Positions 31,675 through 63,168 of a stretch of 64,000 nucleotides of DNA are shown piece by piece (within the stretch, counting starts at the first letter, position 1; each line of letters begins with the position of its first letter). The notes beneath the pieces were generated by a model, which saw only the letters and a list, made by a program, of their open reading frames with translations, had not been told where the DNA came from and ran no database searches. This DNA comes from a virus. Made by a program: the position numbers and the translations under genes. The stretch is taken from positions 1 through 64,000 of the IMG/VR virus record IMGVR_UViG_3300044675_005263; one strand, 5' to 3'.

Positions 31675-31721
31675 TATCTCATTGGGGCAGGGAGTTCCAA
31701 TACAGACAAAGGGAGAAACAA

Positions 31722-32608: not shown

Positions 32609-32653
32609 TTTCCTAGTGGTTCAGGGAGAACCGCAGGAAGAAAGGGAAAGCAA

Positions 32654-35759: not shown

Positions 35760-35837
35760 CTTCTCCCTGCTTCCTTTGGCTCCCTTAGCCAATAAGTAAA
35801 TACTAACAGACCTTCCTGCACTTTGCAACTTCTCTAA

Positions 35838-36053: not shown

Positions 36054-36172
36054 TTTGTTTTCCTTTCCCTATTCCCTATAAATAAATAATAACAGACCTT
36101 CCTGCATTTTGCAAGTATCGGCATAAAATAAAAGTGGAGAGGAGCGCCCTTGCGAGCGCCCCTCTCAGAGCG

Positions 36173-36412: not shown

Positions 36413-36458
36413 TTTTTTACCTCCCTACTGTCGGCTCCCTTTCCGACCTAGTAAAACA

Positions 36459-36540
36459 ATCTTACCACACCTTCCTGCATTTTCCTAATCACGGCGTGTC
36501 GTAGGCTCAATTAGGTTTTGTCAGGAAGGTGTGCTATAAT
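36459..36540. promoter_or_regulatory. Divergent early promoter pair flanking a GGCGTGTCG box
   Basis: CAGGAAGG-TGTGG-TAAGAT (minus, 36459-36477) and CAGGAAGG-TGTGC-TATAAT (plus, 36522-36540). Confidence 0.75.
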
Positions 36541-38892: not shown

Positions 38893-38964
38893 TTTTTAAC
38901 TCCCTAGTTCTCCAGCTCCCTGCTGGTGTCTTAAGTGTAACACATCTTCCTGACTTTTTCTTCC

Positions 38965-39219
38965 TTATCGGGGCTCTTGATTTTCCTCGATTAAAAACGC
39001 AAACCCTGCGCCATTTCCTTCCTCATCTTGAGAGAGGACTAAACCTAGTCCATTATCAAATTCAAGAATAGGAACAGCGTGGTGATTACTAAAATCCCAG
39101 CCCATAAGTTCTTCGGCTTCTTCTTCGGTAGCGCTTCTAATACTTACGAGCTTGGCACCTACCAATTGTCCCCACTCTTTATTTAAATACTCGGTGAGCT
39201 GAATTGTGTTATTCGTCAT
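38965..39219 (-). CDS. Hypothetical protein (SQDEEGNGAG motif)
   Basis: GGGGTAAAAAAATG context. Confidence 0.75.
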   Translation of the reverse strand: MTNNTIQLTEYLNKEWGQLVGAKLVSIRSATEEEAEELMGWDFSNHHAVPILEFDNGLGLVLSQDEEGNGAGFAFLIEENQEPR

Positions 39220-39274
39220 TTTTTTACCCCTCTTGTCGGTTTAGGTCTAGCTTATCTGATCTCTATAATAATTC

Positions 39275-39380
39275 AAAATAGACACACCGCACCCTTGCTA
39301 GGGAGAGCAAGGGACGGTGCGATAAGCACAAGTGCTTATCTCAACGGGGAGCAGAAAGGGAAGTTCGCTCGACCCGGTGA
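39275..39380 (-). ncRNA. Candidate three-hairpin small RNA with UCCCU loops
   Basis: TGA-TAAGAT -10 at 39385-39393; three contiguous stems; U-rich end; no convincing ORF. Confidence 0.6.
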
Positions 39381-39419
39381 TCTAATCTTATCATAATCGG
39401 TGTAACTACTTTTTTACCC

Positions 39420-39725
39420 CTAGCCATTAAAACAATCGGGACACTCTACTTCTCTAGTAGTCCCAGCTAGTTCTGCTTTCATTTTTCCAGCACCGTAACA
39501 AGTCTCGCAGTTCGGGTCGCCTTCATCAAGAATTCCTATATGGTTTGAAACAGACTCAACGTCCCAACCGTAGTGCTCCCTCATCAACTGACTAGCTACT
39601 CTAAGACAAGCGTCCTCGTAGACTTCGCCATCTTTTACCCCTTCTTCGGGAACGCCTACCGTAACCATCATTGAGAAATAATCCCCAATAAACATAACGG
39701 TGCGAGTATCCATAACCTTATCCAT
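39420..39725 (-). CDS. Hypothetical protein with CxxCxGxG..CxxC zinc finger
   Basis: CETCYGAG, CPDC. Confidence 0.7.
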   Translation of the reverse strand: MDKVMDTRTVMFIGDYFSMMVTVGVPEEGVKDGEVYEDACLRVASQLMREHYGWDVESVSNHIGILDEGDPNCETCYGAGKMKAELAGTTREVECPDCFNG

Positions 39726-39815
39726 TTTTTACCCCTACCTAATTAGTGTGAGCAGTTTAGCAACTTACTCAGGTTGTTGAGACGGCGACTAGTCTAGTGT
39801 GCAACCGCCTCAAAC

Positions 39816-40780: not shown

Positions 40781-40850
40781 CTTTTCCCTTTTCTCTCACT
40801 CCCTTAGTGAGTCCCTTTGAAAACCAAGTTTATCATACCTTCCTGCATTT

Positions 40851-41529
40851 TCATACTTTAGGGCAATCGGCATAAGGGTTTTCACTTCCCTCGTTGTCCT
40901 CGCAACCGCACCAATTAAATCTTTCTACCTGCGTGGCGTGAGTTAGTTCTGCCAACTCTCCCCAACTTATAGAGTCTTGACTACATTTATGATCGTGTCC
41001 CAAGTTTAGTAGCGTTGTATTTTCATCGGTGTTTAGCTCTTGATCACACTTACCGCATAGCGGAATAATTTTTTCCCTCACTGCGCCACCTCGCAATCGT
41101 GTCCGTAAGCGTATGCTTCACGAGTCATACTTACGCCACACTCTACGCATTTTATTAGCCATACATCTTTAGCGTAATCATAGTCGTCCGTTATTTTCAT
41201 TTTTTACCTCTCCCTAGTTATGGACTCGGTGGGGAGTCGTATTGTTTCCGACCCTCTAGAGTTCAAGCCGTTCAGGTGTCCAGCGACTTCCCCCCACCGA
41301 GATACCTCAATCCTATCATACCTTCCTGCAAAAACAAAACCCCCACGCCATAAGCGTGAGGGCTTGCCGTAATCTTTTTACCCCGCTAAATAAACTCGGT
41401 CAAGTCCCTATCACTTATCTCGCTTACATCTACGCCTTCGGCTTCAGCGATAGCGTCCCAGAGATCAGCTTCGGTAAAGTCCCCCTCGGGCTTCCACTCC
41501 ATAAGTATAGATAGATAATCTTTCCCCAC
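40851..41529 (-). CDS. Three tiny ORFs (40851-41081, 41078-41200, 41386-41529)
   Basis: RBS or overlap coupling; two are Cys-rich. Confidence 0.55.
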
Positions 41530-42379: not shown

Positions 42380-42546
42380 TTCTCCCTTTCTTACTAGCCG
42401 TCTTGCTAGTGGAGCAAGCCTATCATACCTCTCTGCACTTTCATAATCGAACCGCTTCCTGGATCCTTTTTTACCCCTGCCCCTTGCCAAAAGAAAAAAC
42501 CCCCACCTTTCGGTGAGGGCTTTTGCCTTGCTAAGTAATAGGGAGA

Positions 42547-42942
42547 TTACTTTGCGGTTAGGACAGGATACTCCGTAGTCTTTGCTACCAAGTCAAAAAT
42601 CTCTCGGTAGTCATTGAACAAAATATCTCCGTCAAAATCGGTGCGTTCCCTTAGGTCAATCTTGACTCGTTCCTCGCCAGCGACAAGCCCAACTTCTGCT
42701 TCGCCAACCCACTTATCTTTCTTATTGACCTTTATTTTTTCCCAACCCATAAGGGCGTAAATCTCTGCCTTGATTTTTTCCAACTCGGCAGTTTGCGCTG
42801 AAATCGTTTCAGAAATAGTTTTCTTTTTTGCGATTAGAGCGAGGACATTAGTTTCATCTAAAACTACTGCCTTCTTTGTTGTTGTTGTTGTTGCTACTGA
42901 CTTTACTTCTACTACTTCGTATGATACTTCGGTGTTAGCCAT
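42547..42942 (-). CDS. Coiled-coil hypothetical protein (start MANTEV)
   Basis: AAGGA RBS, terminator downstream. Confidence 0.7.
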   Translation of the reverse strand: MANTEVSYEVVEVKSVATTTTTKKAVVLDETNVLALIAKKKTISETISAQTAELEKIKAEIYALMGWEKIKVNKKDKWVGEAEVGLVAGEERVKIDLRERTDFDGDILFNDYREIFDLVAKTTEYPVLTAK

Positions 42943-48919: not shown

Positions 48920-49146
48920 GTCTTTTGTCCTTTTCCCTTTTAGTTTTGTATCGTGTGTCTAACGATAGGTCTATCATACATTTTTATTTATCTATATGCA
49001 ACTTTAGGTCTATCTGTGTCTAGGTCGGAAGGTGTGAATTTTGATCGTAGGACTCAAAGCTTCCCCTCGCTTTTACCCCCTTTGGTTATGGTGAGGACTC
49101 CACCCATGAAGCCCTCACCCAACCAAGTCAGCAATCTAATAGGGAG

Positions 49147-50205
49147 TTAGATTTTCGCTGGCTTATGCTCAGCGCCATAGGCACGAGCAATAACATCAAC
49201 CACCACATCTCTATCTAACTCAGGTGCGCTCGCAATCAAGTTAGCGATAGCAAACTCTGTGCCAAATAGTTCGGCAGTAGAACGGAAAGCAAGCAACTCT
49301 CTCATCTGAGGCGACCAAGAAATCTCGGCGCTATCGCCCTGAGTTCTCTTAAACAAGTTCTGAGCAACGCTCACCATTGTCTTTGGAACTCCCAACTTCT
49401 CAGCCAGTTTCCAATCTGTGGTGAGTTCTGCCTGAATTGCAAAACGAGATAGCAACGCTTCTGAAAGTCGAACTCCCGGAGCGTTAGGGTTGGTTGCACC
49501 CACTACGAAAAAGTTAGGGTGGATTTTGATAGTTCCTCTATCAGGGTTCATTGGAATTGTGAATTCCTTTCGTCCGTCCATAGCACCATAAGCAAATGAA
49601 AGAACTTTAGGGTCAATCAAACCAATTTCGTCAATCAAAAGTGGTTCGCCATTTTCTACTGCCTTTGTAAATTCTCCGTCAATCCACTCAAAGTTTCCAC
49701 TAGGTGTCTGAACGAAACTTCCCAAGAAATCTGAAACTTCTGTATCTCCACTTCCAATAATTGTGTGGAGAGTTTCATCAGCAAATGAAGCCTCAATGAG
49801 TGCAGTTTTTCCAGTTCCCGGAGCGCCATAGAGAAGGACGAACTGTGGGTCGCCAACTCCTTCTGAATTGTATTTTGAGGTGGCTTCTCTCGCTTTGCGG
49901 AGAACTGCTATGTCCTTATGAATTCCCCATTGGCGAGTGAAATACTTTTGTCCATTAGGACGAACATAAAATTCGTCAGCCTCGAAAGACTCGACATTTA
50001 CTTCACTAGGACTCATAGCACCAACTCTCTCTTTGGCTTTTCTGTCTGCGCCACTTGCTCGCTCAACGAAACGACCATTAGGTAATACTTTTGCATTTAG
50101 TCGGAGTGAAGTTTCCTCATGCACATTTTGCACTATGCACTCTGAAACGATATTCCAAAAGTCGCCCCCAATAGAAGCCAAACTCTCTTTGATAATTGTA
50201 TCCAT
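49147..50205 (-). CDS. MoxR/CobS/CbbQ-family AAA+ ATPase
   Basis: GAPGTGKT, LLIDE, IHPNF.VVGATNP, LSEALLSRF. Confidence 0.85.
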   Translation of the reverse strand: MDTIIKESLASIGGDFWNIVSECIVQNVHEETSLRLNAKVLPNGRFVERASGADRKAKERVGAMSPSEVNVESFEADEFYVRPNGQKYFTRQWGIHKDIAVLRKAREATSKYNSEGVGDPQFVLLYGAPGTGKTALIEASFADETLHTIIGSGDTEVSDFLGSFVQTPSGNFEWIDGEFTKAVENGEPLLIDEIGLIDPKVLSFAYGAMDGRKEFTIPMNPDRGTIKIHPNFFVVGATNPNAPGVRLSEALLSRFAIQAELTTDWKLAEKLGVPKTMVSVAQNLFKRTQGDSAEISWSPQMRELLAFRSTAELFGTEFAIANLIASAPELDRDVVVDVIARAYGAEHKPAKI

Positions 50206-52033: not shown

Positions 52034-53212
52034 TGTTCTCCTCGTGTTCTATTACAGATTGAGTTATCTCTAACCCAAGAGCCTGAATCTCTTTTCCCAA
52101 ATCGTCAATCGCTTCATCTATGTTTTGACGAACATCAAAGTAATCCCATGGATTTTCGTCAGTCTTTGGTGAGCGAATGTATTGCAAATCAACTGCACAT
52201 GAGACAGCAATGTTGATTACCTTGATTGCGTTCTCATCACCAGCCAAATACTTTTCTGCTAGTTCTTGATACATGTTTTCCCTTTCGTCATTTGTAGTTT
52301 TATTATAGCGATTTACAATCGCTTATTCAACTTCCACCACTCGGAAGTTTTCATCTTCCAAGATAGAAACGCTGAAGTCCAAGTCAATCCCTCTATTGCG
52401 CTCCCCAACTTCAGGGAGGTCGTTGATGTTGATTTCATCATCCATTACTTGCTTTAGAAGAGCCTTTGCCTCTTCATCATTCTTTGCCTCAAACCAAACT
52501 TGGTTCATTGAGATTTCGTTGAATCTAAACGAGTATTGCATTTTTTCCCTTTCGTCATTTGTGGTGTTGGGGAACGAGTTTTTGTTCCTAGGACTTCAAC
52601 CCTATTCAGCATCAGCAAATAGAATCTGCCCCAACAAGCCAAACTTATCATACCTTTCTAGATAAGTGCAACAACACGCCAGAAAGTTTTTGACACTAGA
52701 CATCTTGGTAAATGAAATTGTTTTTTCCCGGCGACCTGGTCCCTCCACACTGGCAACAGCGAATTATTATTTCCGGGTCCAGGGCCTGGCCGCCGACGCT
52801 GTCGCTAAATTATATTTTCCGGGGTGTCATCATTTGCTGCATCAACGATTCTTGTGCGTGCAACTGCAACATCATAAAGTTCGTTGTACTTGACCAAGTT
52901 GTAGATGTCCTCGCAGAACATCTCGGCGGCAGCAATCTGGAGTTCGTCATCCGTCATTGTTATTTCCGGGTCTGTCTGAAGCTGGTCGAGATCGAACTCG
53001 AGTTCTATTTTCGTAACTAACTTTCTTGTCATCCGTTACTCCTCACACTCGCAGAGATGTCCACAGGTATAGCAGACCCACGCCGTTGTCAGGTGGGTGT
53101 AGTACCCATATCGTCTCTCGCCGTGAAATCCTTCAGAGTAGGCGTACCAACGCCCGTCATCTTCCTGAAAGGTGGCTCCGTCTATCTCTCGAGTCTTTTC
53201 TAATGAAATCAT
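52026..53212 (-). CDS. Four small ORFs (52026-52274, 52323-52541, 52805-53032, 53036-53212)
   Basis: RBS-preceded acidic ORFs. Confidence 0.65.
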
Positions 53213-62567: not shown

Positions 62568-62882
62568 ATGTATTTTAAAAACACACCATCATGTCTAGGA
62601 CTAGATATAAATTTGTTTTTTGTTGAAGATGATTCAGGTAATGCTAATTACACGAATCTAAATCACATCAAGCGAATGTGTAAAAATTGTCCAGCATTGA
62701 TGGAGTGTTTTGAATACTCAAGAGACAACCTAGTCCATGGGATATGGGCTGGAACTACTTTCAACGAAAGAGATACTTACAGACGTAAGAACGAAATAGT
62801 TGGTATACCTGTTGTACCGATCTCTTTAGTTAGAGATCACATAGACGCTTTAGAGAGAGAAGACAATGACTGTAGTAAGTAA
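62568..62882 (+). CDS. whiB: WhiB-family transcription factor
   Basis: C..FF..CKNC..ECF..GIWAG. Confidence 0.85.
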   Translation: MYFKNTPSCLGLDINLFFVEDDSGNANYTNLNHIKRMCKNCPALMECFEYSRDNLVHGIWAGTTFNERDTYRRKNEIVGIPVVPISLVRDHIDALEREDNDCSK

Positions 62883-63168
62883 AGCTTTAAAACCAGTCCA
62901 CGACCAATGGGAGTGGCAGTATCAAGGCGCATGCAATGGCGTTGATACTGATGAGTTTTTTCTTGAAGAAAATATGCGTGGTAAAACTAAAAGAACTAGA
63001 GAGCTTAATGCTATTGCAATCTGCAACACATGTCCTGTAAAACAAGCATGTCTTGATCACGCTCTTAAAGTTCCAGAGGTCTATGGCGTCTGGGGCGGGA
63101 TGAATGAAGAGAGCAGACATGCACTCGCAAAAAGGCTAGGTATTGTTTATGGCATTATACGGATTTAA
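62866..63168 (+). CDS. whiB: WhiB-family transcription factor (WhiB3-like)
   Basis: WEWQYQGAC..FF..CNTCPVKQAC..GVWGG. Confidence 0.9.
   Translation: MTVVSKALKPVHDQWEWQYQGACNGVDTDEFFLEENMRGKTKRTRELNAIAICNTCPVKQACLDHALKVPEVYGVWGGMNEESRHALAKRLGIVYGIIRI

What the first reader, a model, noticed from the sequence alone, without database searches (positions are those of the whole stretch)
39275..39393. Stand-alone ~100-nt three-hairpin RNA with two anti-SD loops
On the minus strand an extended -10 (TGA-TAAGAT) precedes stem 1 (loop CUUCCCU), a perfect stem 2 (GAUAAGCA-CUUG-UGCUUAUC) and stem 3 (CCCUUGCU-CUCCCU-AGCAAGGG), then a U-rich tail. UUCCCUUUC matches GAAAGGGAA SDs (32640, 46853, 52278, 52545). 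CUCUCCCUAG is a 10-nt match to the RBS at 41208-41217. This resembles C-rich-loop sRNAs such as S. aureus RsaE. Read on the plus strand the loops are AGGGAG and AGGGAAG, as in Csr/Rsm decoy RNAs.
Basis: partly seen in the sequence, partly recalled or inferred. Interest (0 to 1): 0.82.

Follow-up and report, generated by a model that had tools for sequence, protein, structure and literature searches.

The report
Conserved actinophage small RNA, C-rich loops
An uncultured freshwater phage of actinobacteria, and about fifty related phage contigs, carry an uncatalogued ~100-base three-hairpin RNA gene whose pyrimidine/C-rich loops mirror the G-rich ribosome-binding sites of the phages' own genes, so it is probably a translation-damping small RNA, though no transcript or target has yet been observed.

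Summary
On the minus strand, 39284-39376 folds into three hairpins (z = -5.8) behind an extended -10 element.

- **Family.** The same element lies at the same early-region position, on the gene-sense strand, in about 49 IMG/VR contigs that I sorted by eye into nine sequence groups (A-I).
- **Structure.** On 29 sequences 92.5% of cells pair, and 28 of 34 pairs show compensatory changes.
- **Strand.** G-U pairs outnumber A-C mismatches 90 to 10, which fixes the RNA strand as the gene-sense one. This rejects the plus-strand Csr/Rsm decoy reading.
- **Own gene.** A TAnnnT -10 box sits 7-9 nt before hairpin 1 in every group. Two groups add a canonical terminator. Flanking genes vary. It therefore behaves as a stand-alone gene.
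- **Database status.** There is no Rfam match, 6C included.
- **Conserved sequence.** The linker WUGA and the closing pairs are invariant. At least two loops per group keep a C-run or C/U-rich tract.
- **Targets.** Loop C-run type tracks the G-run type of the cognate phages' ribosome-binding sites, but this rests on only about three independent groups. Within this genome no specific target stands out over shuffled loops.

Best reading: a 6C/RsaE-like anti-Shine-Dalgarno small RNA that is not a member of either family. Expression and targets are untested. The scan found this family before on other DNA (e1-5949501, and by its description e1-5797958).

The parts
39385..39393 (-). Extended -10 promoter element TGaTAAGAT. 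The predicted transcription start is about 39378, which is inferred and not mapped.
   Evidence: Sequence. A TAnnnT hexamer lies 7-9 nt upstream of hairpin 1 in all nine groups. There is no canonical -35.
39345..39376 (-). Hairpin P1, closed by an invariant C-G pair, with an internal bulge. Loop L1 is CUUCCCU (39357-39363) within ACUUCCCUUUCU.
   Evidence: Fold. In the outer helix, 3 of 4 pairs covary (CGGG/CCCG, CAGG/CCUG, CACG/CGUG, CUAG/CUAG, CUUG/CAAG and others).
39341..39344 (-). Single-stranded linker UUGA. Across the whole family it is WUGA, with UGA invariant.
   Evidence: Alignment A3. Its function is unknown.
39321..39340 (-). Hairpin P2, GAUAAGCA-CUUG-UGCUUAUC, closed by an invariant G-C pair. 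In most relatives the loop reads UUCCCU, AUACCCU or UUCUACCU.
   Evidence: In this helix, 6 of 7 pairs covary.
39284..39320 (-). Hairpin P3, about 15 bp, abutting P2 with no linker. Its base is GCAC/GUGU. Loop L3 is CUCCCU (39300-39305).
   Evidence: In this helix, 12 of 15 pairs covary, and the G-U pair at the base is present in every sequence that has letters there (22 of 29; gaps in the other 7).
39270..39283 (-). U-rich tail GUCUAUUUUGAAUU. With P3 it may act as a weak terminator, and it overlaps the -35-like hexamer of the next promoter.
   Evidence: Sequence. It fails the canonical terminator scan. In groups C and G a canonical terminator follows 15-25 nt after P3.
39249..39276 (-). Promoter-like TTGAAT-16 nt-TAAGCT for the downstream gene.
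   Evidence: Sequence. Equivalent TTGnnn-17-TAnnnT sites follow P3 in groups B, E and F.
39420..39725 (-). Upstream gene P0001 (101 aa): a conserved ~70-aa acidic domain of unknown fold plus a CxxCxGxG zinc ribbon. Its homologues were used to fetch the family.
   Evidence: AlphaFold model with pLDDT 80 has no PDB fold match.
38965..39219 (-). Downstream gene P0002 (84 aa, no family). It is not conserved next to the RNA in other groups.

Best explanation
The element is a stand-alone gene for a small non-coding RNA of roughly 100 nt, from about 39378 to about 39275 on the minus strand, in an uncultured freshwater actinophage.

What is shown by comparative analysis:
- The fold is three consecutive hairpins, 5'-C[P1]-WUGA-[P2][P3]-U-rich tail.
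- The transcribed strand is the gene-sense strand.
- A dedicated -10 box lies immediately upstream.

What is inferred about how it works: the RNA acts in trans by base pairing. Its exposed pyrimidine/C-run loops (L1 UUCCCUUUCU and L3 CUCCCUA here; L2 as well in most relatives) anneal to single-stranded G-run Shine-Dalgarno regions such as AGGGAG, GAAAGGGAA and GGGG. In groups A and B they may also anneal to AGGGA loops of 5' leader hairpins. The likely targets are phage early mRNAs and possibly host mRNAs. Pairing would out-compete the 16S anti-SD and lower translation or mRNA stability. This is the mechanism shown experimentally for actinobacterial 6C, which works without an RNA chaperone. 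The invariant linker and closing pairs probably fix the geometry of the three arms or bind an unknown factor.
For: 1. Structure. 92.5% of cells are paired. 28 of 34 pairs have compensatory changes. The covariation score is 0.553, against 0.195 for shuffles (0 of 500 as high) and about 0.1 for slid controls, on 29 sequences. RNAalifold recovers the same three helices.

2. Strand. There are 90 G-U cells in 22 pair columns, against 10 A-C cells in 4 columns. All covariance-model hits lie on the gene-sense strand.

3. Own transcription unit.
- A TAnnnT box lies 7-9 nt before P1 in all nine groups.
- Canonical terminators follow in groups C and G.
- The next gene has its own promoter-like site.
- Flanking genes differ, and an extra gene separates the RNA from the P0001 homologue in L020 and in group E.

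4. Loops. At least two loops per group keep a C-run or C/U-rich tract while the stems change.

5. Loop and ribosome-binding-site co-variation across nine groups. The trace of the double-centred duplex-energy matrix is -6.11. Only 21 of 362,880 permutations are as low. Composition-kept shuffled loops give -1.12 +/- 1.36, and none of 30 is as low.

6. Exact 9-10-nt complements of L1 and L3 sit at five ribosome-binding sites in the window.

7. Precedent. The C-rich loops of 6C bind G-rich ribosome-binding sites and 5'UTR loops without a chaperone (PMC6486639).
Against: - No expression data exist.
- Within this genome, pairing to early TIRs is not better than for 19 of 200 shuffled loops. The 16S anti-SD shows the same early-versus-rest bias. 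No specific target is therefore demonstrated.
- The cross-group signal reduces to about three independent groups. It survives reversing the loops (-5.42), so it reflects C-run/G-run type rather than oriented complementarity.
- The junction (WUGA and the closing pairs) is more conserved than any loop. Loop-only pairing does not explain this.
- Loop 1 in groups C, D, H and I, loop 2 in the window, and loop 3 in group G are not C-rich.
- AGGGA-loop leader hairpins occur only in groups A and B.
- The window has no canonical terminator.
Confidence: 0.55

Rival explanations
1. It is a protein- or ribosome-binding structured RNA, acting as a decoy or scaffold. In this reading the conserved three-arm geometry and the invariant WUGA linker are what get recognised. 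The partner could be a host RNA-binding protein, a nuclease or a defence factor. The C/U-rich loops would be protein contacts rather than antisense seeds.
For: The linker UGA, the C-G closing pair of P1, the G-C closing pair of P2 and the GCAC/GUGU base of P3 are invariant or nearly so. This holds across groups whose neighbouring protein is only about 40% identical, while the loops vary. Within-genome target specificity is not significant. The element lies in an early region full of small acidic proteins, which another reader called anti-defence-like.
Against: No candidate partner was found. The neighbouring P0001 domain has no recognisable fold, and adjacency to it is broken in several groups. 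The tracking of loop C-run type with ribosome-binding-site G-run type is not predicted by this model.
Confidence: 0.2
2. It is a cis-acting element rather than a trans-acting RNA. It could be a structured terminator or insulator between early transcription units, or a 5' leader that controls read-through into the downstream gene.
For: P3 is a long GC-rich helix followed by a U-rich stretch. The early region is built of terminator-promoter modules (note e1-5978704). In groups A, B, E and F no canonical terminator separates the RNA from the next gene.
Against: - The conserved -10 box lies upstream of the hairpins, not downstream.
- Three covarying hairpins with conserved loops and linker are far more than a terminator needs.
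- The downstream gene differs between groups and has its own promoter-like site.
- In groups C and G a separate canonical terminator follows.
Confidence: 0.12
3. It is a plus-strand RNA with AGGGAG/AGGGAAG loops that sponges a CsrA/Rsm-like protein binding GGA motifs.
For: The plus strand also folds (z = -4.5). Its loops match ANGGA. A TATAAT lies on the plus strand 14-15 nt outside P3 in groups A and C (read).
Against: - On the plus strand the 90 G-U cells become A-C mismatches.
- That plus-strand TATAAT is not conserved in the other groups.
- There is no CsrA gene in the phage.
- From general knowledge, CsrA is not a feature of Actinobacteria.
Confidence: 0.03

Closest known systems
6C sRNA of Actinobacteria (Rfam RF01066; B11 in mycobacteria; PMC6486639)
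   Same: Both belong to the actinobacterial world. Both have abutting hairpins that display C-rich loops. In both, the last hairpin is long, GC-rich and terminator-like. In 6C the loops are shown to pair with G-rich ribosome-binding sites and 5'UTR loops without Hfq or ProQ, which is the mechanism proposed here. My model R1 weakly hits phage 6C-like RNAs (E = 0.004-0.03).
   Different: - No RF01066 match appears at E <= 10 in the window or E <= 1 in eight groups.
- There are three hairpins, not two.
- The loops carry CCC or CCCC within U-rich contexts, not runs of six C.
- The WUGA linker is invariant.
- It is phage-borne. It was not found in 151 Actinomycetia genomes apart from one dubious hit inside a coding region.
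- Group C phages carry a separate near-threshold 6C-like RNA in addition, so this RNA is not their 6C orthologue.
RsaE/RoxS of Firmicutes (Rfam family RsaE; C-rich-region sRNAs)
   Same: Both have several unpaired C-rich motifs that act as anti-SD seeds on many mRNAs, and both are stand-alone genes with their own promoter. The RsaE/RoxS side of this comparison rests on established knowledge (RoxS is discussed in PMC8216469, listed) and was not tested here.
   Different: There is no Rfam match. The architecture, phylum and carrier (a phage) all differ.
Phage translational repressors of early genes (T4 RegA protein) and phage antisense RNAs (P1/P7 c4 RNA)
   Same: These are phage-encoded factors that bind the ribosome-binding sites of several of the phage's own genes. 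c4 does so with loop sequences complementary to the ribosome-binding region.
   Different: RegA is a protein. c4 is processed from an operon transcript of temperate phages and targets defined sites. No homology was tested or is expected.

Membership tests
6C RNA (Rfam RF01066) | Scores at or above the curated gathering threshold (47 bits) of the RF01066 covariance model | tested here: not met
   There is no hit at E <= 10 on 39200-39450, none at gathering level in the window, none at E <= 1 in G000, and none on the element in eight other groups. The only 6C hits are a different locus in group C phages (46 and 42.8 bits).
6C RNA (Rfam RF01066) | Two abutting hairpins, each loop carrying a run of about six conserved cytosines | tested here: not met
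   P2 and P3 abut, but the loops hold CCC (groups A, B) or CCCC (groups E, F, G), and there is a third 5' hairpin.
6C RNA (Rfam RF01066) | Chromosomal gene conserved in Actinobacteria | tested here: not met
   All confident members are IMG/VR viral contigs. Among 151 Actinomycetia genomes there is only one 27-bit hit, antisense inside a nuoD-like ORF at 72% GC.
6C RNA (Rfam RF01066) | C-rich loops base-pair with G-rich mRNA ribosome-binding sites or 5'UTR loops and repress translation | not testable with these tools
   Only in-silico complementarity is available.
RsaE/RoxS | Match to the Rfam RsaE model; Firmicute chromosomal gene | tested here: not met
   No Rfam family matches the element. 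The carrier is an actinophage-like virus with two WhiB genes.
CsrB/RsmY/RsmZ-type protein sponges | GGA motifs displayed in hairpin loops of the transcribed strand | tested here: not met
   The strand under structural selection shows UCCCU loops. G-U against A-C cells are 90 to 10.
CsrB/RsmY/RsmZ-type protein sponges | A CsrA/RsmA partner protein is present | tested here: not met
   There is no PF02599 match in G000 at E <= 1. The host genome is unknown.
Intrinsic (Rho-independent) terminator only | A single GC-rich hairpin followed directly by a run of at least 5 U in 8 nt | tested here: not met
   The terminator scan finds none in 38900-39800. The element has three covarying hairpins with conserved loops.

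The most novel reading that the evidence does not exclude
The RNA is a phage-encoded master regulator of translation that co-evolves with a phage-specific Shine-Dalgarno dialect: AGGGA in groups A and B, AAGGGG in E, F and G, and AGGAG/GAGGA in C, D, H and I. By presenting up to three better-than-16S anti-SD loops on a rigid scaffold, it would shut off, or set the timing of, the whole early-gene class. That would make it an RNA counterpart of T4 RegA in lytic actinophages.
Probability: 0.3. Interest if true: 0.8.

Novelty: new variant of a known kind. Interest (0 to 1): 0.6.

Why it matters
Trans-acting regulatory RNAs encoded by lytic phages are few, and I know of none described for actinophages. 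This family is abundant in lake viromes, is strongly supported by covariation, is absent from Rfam, and has a simple, testable design.

If its loops really titrate the phage's own G-run ribosome-binding sites, it would be an RNA-only early-gene switch. It would also be a natural example of a regulator and a Shine-Dalgarno dialect evolving together.

It also extends the chaperone-free C-rich-loop mechanism known from 6C to viruses of the same phylum. The invariant WUGA junction is an unexplained structural feature worth probing.

Tried and rejected
- **Known RNA families.** ARAGORN and Rfam, at both gathering and E-value thresholds, give no tRNA or family hit on the element.
- **Hammerhead.** The CUGAUGAG in some relatives looked hammerhead-like. 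It arises from P1 covariation (CCCG to CCUG), and there is no GAAA box, so I rejected it by inspection.
- **Outer closing helix.** The UAGAUCA/UGUCUA helix in the window's MFE fold uses bases upstream of the predicted start and does not covary, so I rejected it.
- **Short ORF.** A short ORF starting at the WUG of the linker is not conserved (inspection).
- **Phage database.** No DNA match. The nearest named phage, Actinomycetia phage DSL-LC01, has no copy even with search filters off.
- **Tight DNA pattern in IMG/VR.** It returned only the contigs already known.
- **Within-genome target ranking.** Early TIRs pair better than the rest (p about 1e-4), but so does the 16S anti-SD (p = 0.006), and 19 of 200 shuffled loops do as well. 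I do not count this as evidence for particular targets.
- **Leader hairpins with G-rich loops as a general target.** They are present only in groups A and B.
- **GTAAAA box.** The box upstream of the -10 is not enriched as a promoter element in the window.
- **P0001 as an RNA partner.** The fold model is confident, but there is no PDB fold match.
- **Host-genome search.** It gave one probable false positive.

Full report
**Context.** The window is the first 64 kb of a 105-kb linear IMG/VR viral contig, with an estimated completeness of 79%.
- It carries portal, major head, tail, ribonucleotide reductase and CobT-like ATPase genes and two WhiB genes at 62.6-63.1 kb.
- Its nearest named relative is the uncultured Actinomycetia phage DSL-LC01 from Dishui Lake, at 47% amino-acid identity on one protein (PMC10611076).
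- It is therefore a freshwater actinophage-like virus with about 44% GC.
- The finding lies in a 200-nt gap between two small minus-strand genes, 39420-39725 (P0001) and 38965-39219 (P0002), within a long block of small minus-strand early-type genes.

**Observation.**
- The minus strand folds at -50.7 kcal/mol, against -30.2 +/- 3.5 for shuffles (z = -5.8).
- The layout is as follows:
  - extended -10 TGaTAAGAT at 39393-39385;
  - P1 at 39376-39345, with loop CUUCCCU;
  - linker UUGA at 39344-39341;
  - P2 at 39340-39321, with loop CUUG;
  - P3 at 39320-39284, with loop CUCCCU;
  - a tail GUCUAUUUUGAAUU.
GAAAGGGAA is over-represented (5 sites against 1.0 expected). The 10-mer at 41208 is a single match.

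**Conservation and structure.**
- I used homologues of P0001 to fetch related IMG/VR contigs. In nearly all of them the same element lies downstream on the same strand.
- A covariance model built from 13 sequences (R1) then found sequences it had not been trained on. These came from much more distant phages, whose neighbouring protein is 40-55% identical, at 19-48 bits. Weaker hits at the same syntenic spot appeared in five further loci.
- Counting the 25 contigs and the 24, about 49 contigs carry it. I sorted these by eye into nine sequence groups, A to I.
- On the 29-sequence alignment A3:
  - 92.5% of cells form standard pairs;
  - 28 of 34 pairs show compensatory changes;
  - the covariation score is 0.553, against 0.195 for shuffles (0 of 500 as high) and about 0.1 for slid controls.
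- RNAalifold predicts the same three helices on its own, with 23 of 26 pairs compensatory.
- A caveat applies: A3 was fitted to the model. However, the first MAFFT alignment already showed 12 compensatory pairs.
- Invariant or nearly invariant features are:
  - the C-G pair closing P1;
  - the linker WUGA;
  - the G-C pair closing P2;
  - the absence of any linker between P2 and P3;
  - the GCAC/GUGU base of P3.

**Strand.** In the helices, G-U or U-G pairs occupy 90 cells in 22 pair columns. A-C or C-A mismatches occupy 10 cells in 4 columns. The conserved structure therefore belongs to the gene-sense (window minus) strand. On the other strand those 90 cells would be mismatches. Together with the absence of CsrA, this rejects the Csr/Rsm-decoy reading.

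**Own transcription unit.**
- In every group a TAnnnT hexamer lies 7-9 nt upstream of the first base of P1, often with an upstream TG. This places the predicted start at the foot of P1. There is no canonical -35, which from general knowledge is usual for actinobacterial promoters.
- In groups C and G a canonical GC-hairpin-plus-U-run terminator follows 15-25 nt after P3.
- In groups A, B, E and F the next gene's own -35/-10-like promoter starts within about 12 nt of P3.
- The downstream gene differs between groups. In L020 and in group E an extra gene lies between the P0001 homologue and the RNA, while the -10 box stays attached to the RNA.
- The RNA and its promoter thus behave as a module.
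- In the window itself the simple scans call neither a promoter nor a terminator, so the ends of the RNA are inferred, not shown.

**Loops.**
- The stems change freely, while the loops stay pyrimidine-rich with a C-run.
  - L1 is UUCCCUU(U/C)C or UCCCCUUU in groups A, B, E, F and G.
  - L2 is UUCCCU, AUACCCUU or UUCUACCU in all groups but A.
  - L3 is CUCCCU(A) in groups A, B, C, F and I, UUCCCCU in E, and CUCUCUC in D.
- Each group keeps at least two loops with a C-run or C/U-rich tract.

**Targets.**
- Across the nine groups I compared each RNA's loops with the TIRs of about 35-47 predicted genes, taken from 20 kb around the RNA in each group.
- After double-centring the mean best duplex energies, the diagonal (cognate pairs) sums to -6.11. 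Only 21 of 362,880 permutations are as low.
- Loops shuffled with their composition kept give -1.12 +/- 1.36, and none of 30 is as low. Reversed loops give -5.42.
- The signal is thus a match between C-run type and G-run type:
  - CCC with AGGGA in groups A and B;
  - CCCC with AAGGGG in groups E, F and G;
  - CUCC or CUCUC with AGGAG or GAGGA in groups C, D, H and I.
- It rests on roughly three independent groups, so it is suggestive and not conclusive.
- Within G000 the loops pair better with early-region TIRs than with the rest (p about 1e-4). The 16S anti-SD does the same (p = 0.006), and 19 of 200 shuffled loops do as well. No particular target can be named.
They lie at 31681 and 32616 on the plus strand, and at 40811, 38926, 36447, 36082 and 35792 on the minus strand. 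The stem of one covaries in group A relatives. Such hairpins occur only in groups A and B.

**Comparison with what is known.**
- No Rfam family matches.
- The closest design is actinobacterial 6C. Its C-rich loops pair with G-rich ribosome-binding sites and 5'UTR loops without a chaperone (PMC6486639).
- The element fails the 6C model, has three hairpins, has shorter C-runs and is phage-borne.
- Group C phages carry, in addition, a separate near-threshold 6C-like RNA 1.2 kb upstream (46 and 42.8 bits against a threshold of 47). The element is therefore not simply the phage's copy of 6C.
- R1 found nothing convincing in 151 Actinomycetia genomes.

**Verdict.** This is a real, conserved, uncatalogued phage small-RNA family. 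The most likely mechanism is anti-SD pairing through its C/U-rich loops, and I put 0.55 on the whole statement. The fold, the strand and the conserved -10 box are shown by comparative analysis. The transcript ends, its expression and the pairing to targets are inferred. The conserved junction remains unexplained and keeps a protein-binding rival alive.

The same family was met earlier by this scan on other DNA (e1-5949501, which shares sequence words with this element, and by its description e1-5797958), with the same conclusion. Those notes are not independent evidence.

Noticed in passing
L185:580-653 and L140:314-385 (group C relatives; also G007:C1:77118-77191): These are near-threshold matches to Rfam 6C (46 and 42.8 bits; gathering score 47). 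Each has two abutting hairpins with CCCCCC and CUCCCCC loops and a U tail, overlapping the stop codon of a 111-aa gene. It is a phage-borne 6C-like RNA, separate from the three-hairpin RNA, and was seen only in group C among the genomes checked.
   Followed up: partly
window 31681-31701 and 32616-32634 (+); 40795-40811, 38912-38926, 36430-36447, 36068-36082, 35776-35792 (-): 5' leader hairpins display (A)AGGGA in the loop, followed 5-12 nt later by an AGGGA/AGGGAG Shine-Dalgarno and a start codon. The stem of the 38912 hairpin covaries in relatives L002-L004. Similar hairpins occur in group B but not in groups C to I.
   Followed up: partly
window 42533-42552 (-) and 49133-49153 (-): Two further gene-sense hairpins at the 3' ends of ORFs carry the same CUCCCU(A) loop as P3. 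The first is followed by a canonical terminator.
   Followed up: no
window, upstream of the leader hairpins, e.g. about 35793-35830, 36448-36485, 38927-38960, 40812-40850 (-): Early promoters share a conserved spacer box (A/G)TGCAGGAAGGT, or GTCAGGAAGAT, between a TTGnnA -35 and a TAnnnT -10. The RNA's own promoter lacks this box.
   Followed up: no
window 52278-52300 and 52545-52567 (-) and many leaders in L190 and L191: A leader box AAA(U/C)GACGAA(A)GG directly precedes the Shine-Dalgarno sequence of many early genes in several groups.
   Followed up: no
window 39259-39268 (-); L140 and L185 about 15-20 nt after P3: ATTATAGAGA is conserved just after P3 in groups A and C. On the opposite strand it reads TATAAT, 14-15 nt outside P3. 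It is not conserved in other groups, and its meaning is unknown.
   Followed up: no
window 39420-39725 (-): P0001 is a conserved ~70-aa acidic domain (VMFVGDYF..EHYGWDV) of unknown fold (AlphaFold pLDDT 80, no PDB match). It is widespread in this phage family. Only groups A and B add a DnaJ-like CxxCxGxG...CxxC zinc ribbon.
   Followed up: partly
window 62583-62774 and 62914-63126 (+): Two adjacent WhiB-family genes lie next to the ribonucleotide reductase gene, supporting an actinobacterial host.
   Followed up: no
L198:1501-1607 (-) (G162, an Actinomycetia genome): A 27-bit R1 hit has a P1-like CCGGGUCGGAGCG...CGCUCCCCGUCGA. It lies antisense inside the 5' end of a nuoD-like ORF at 72% GC, and is probably a chance match.
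   Followed up: partly
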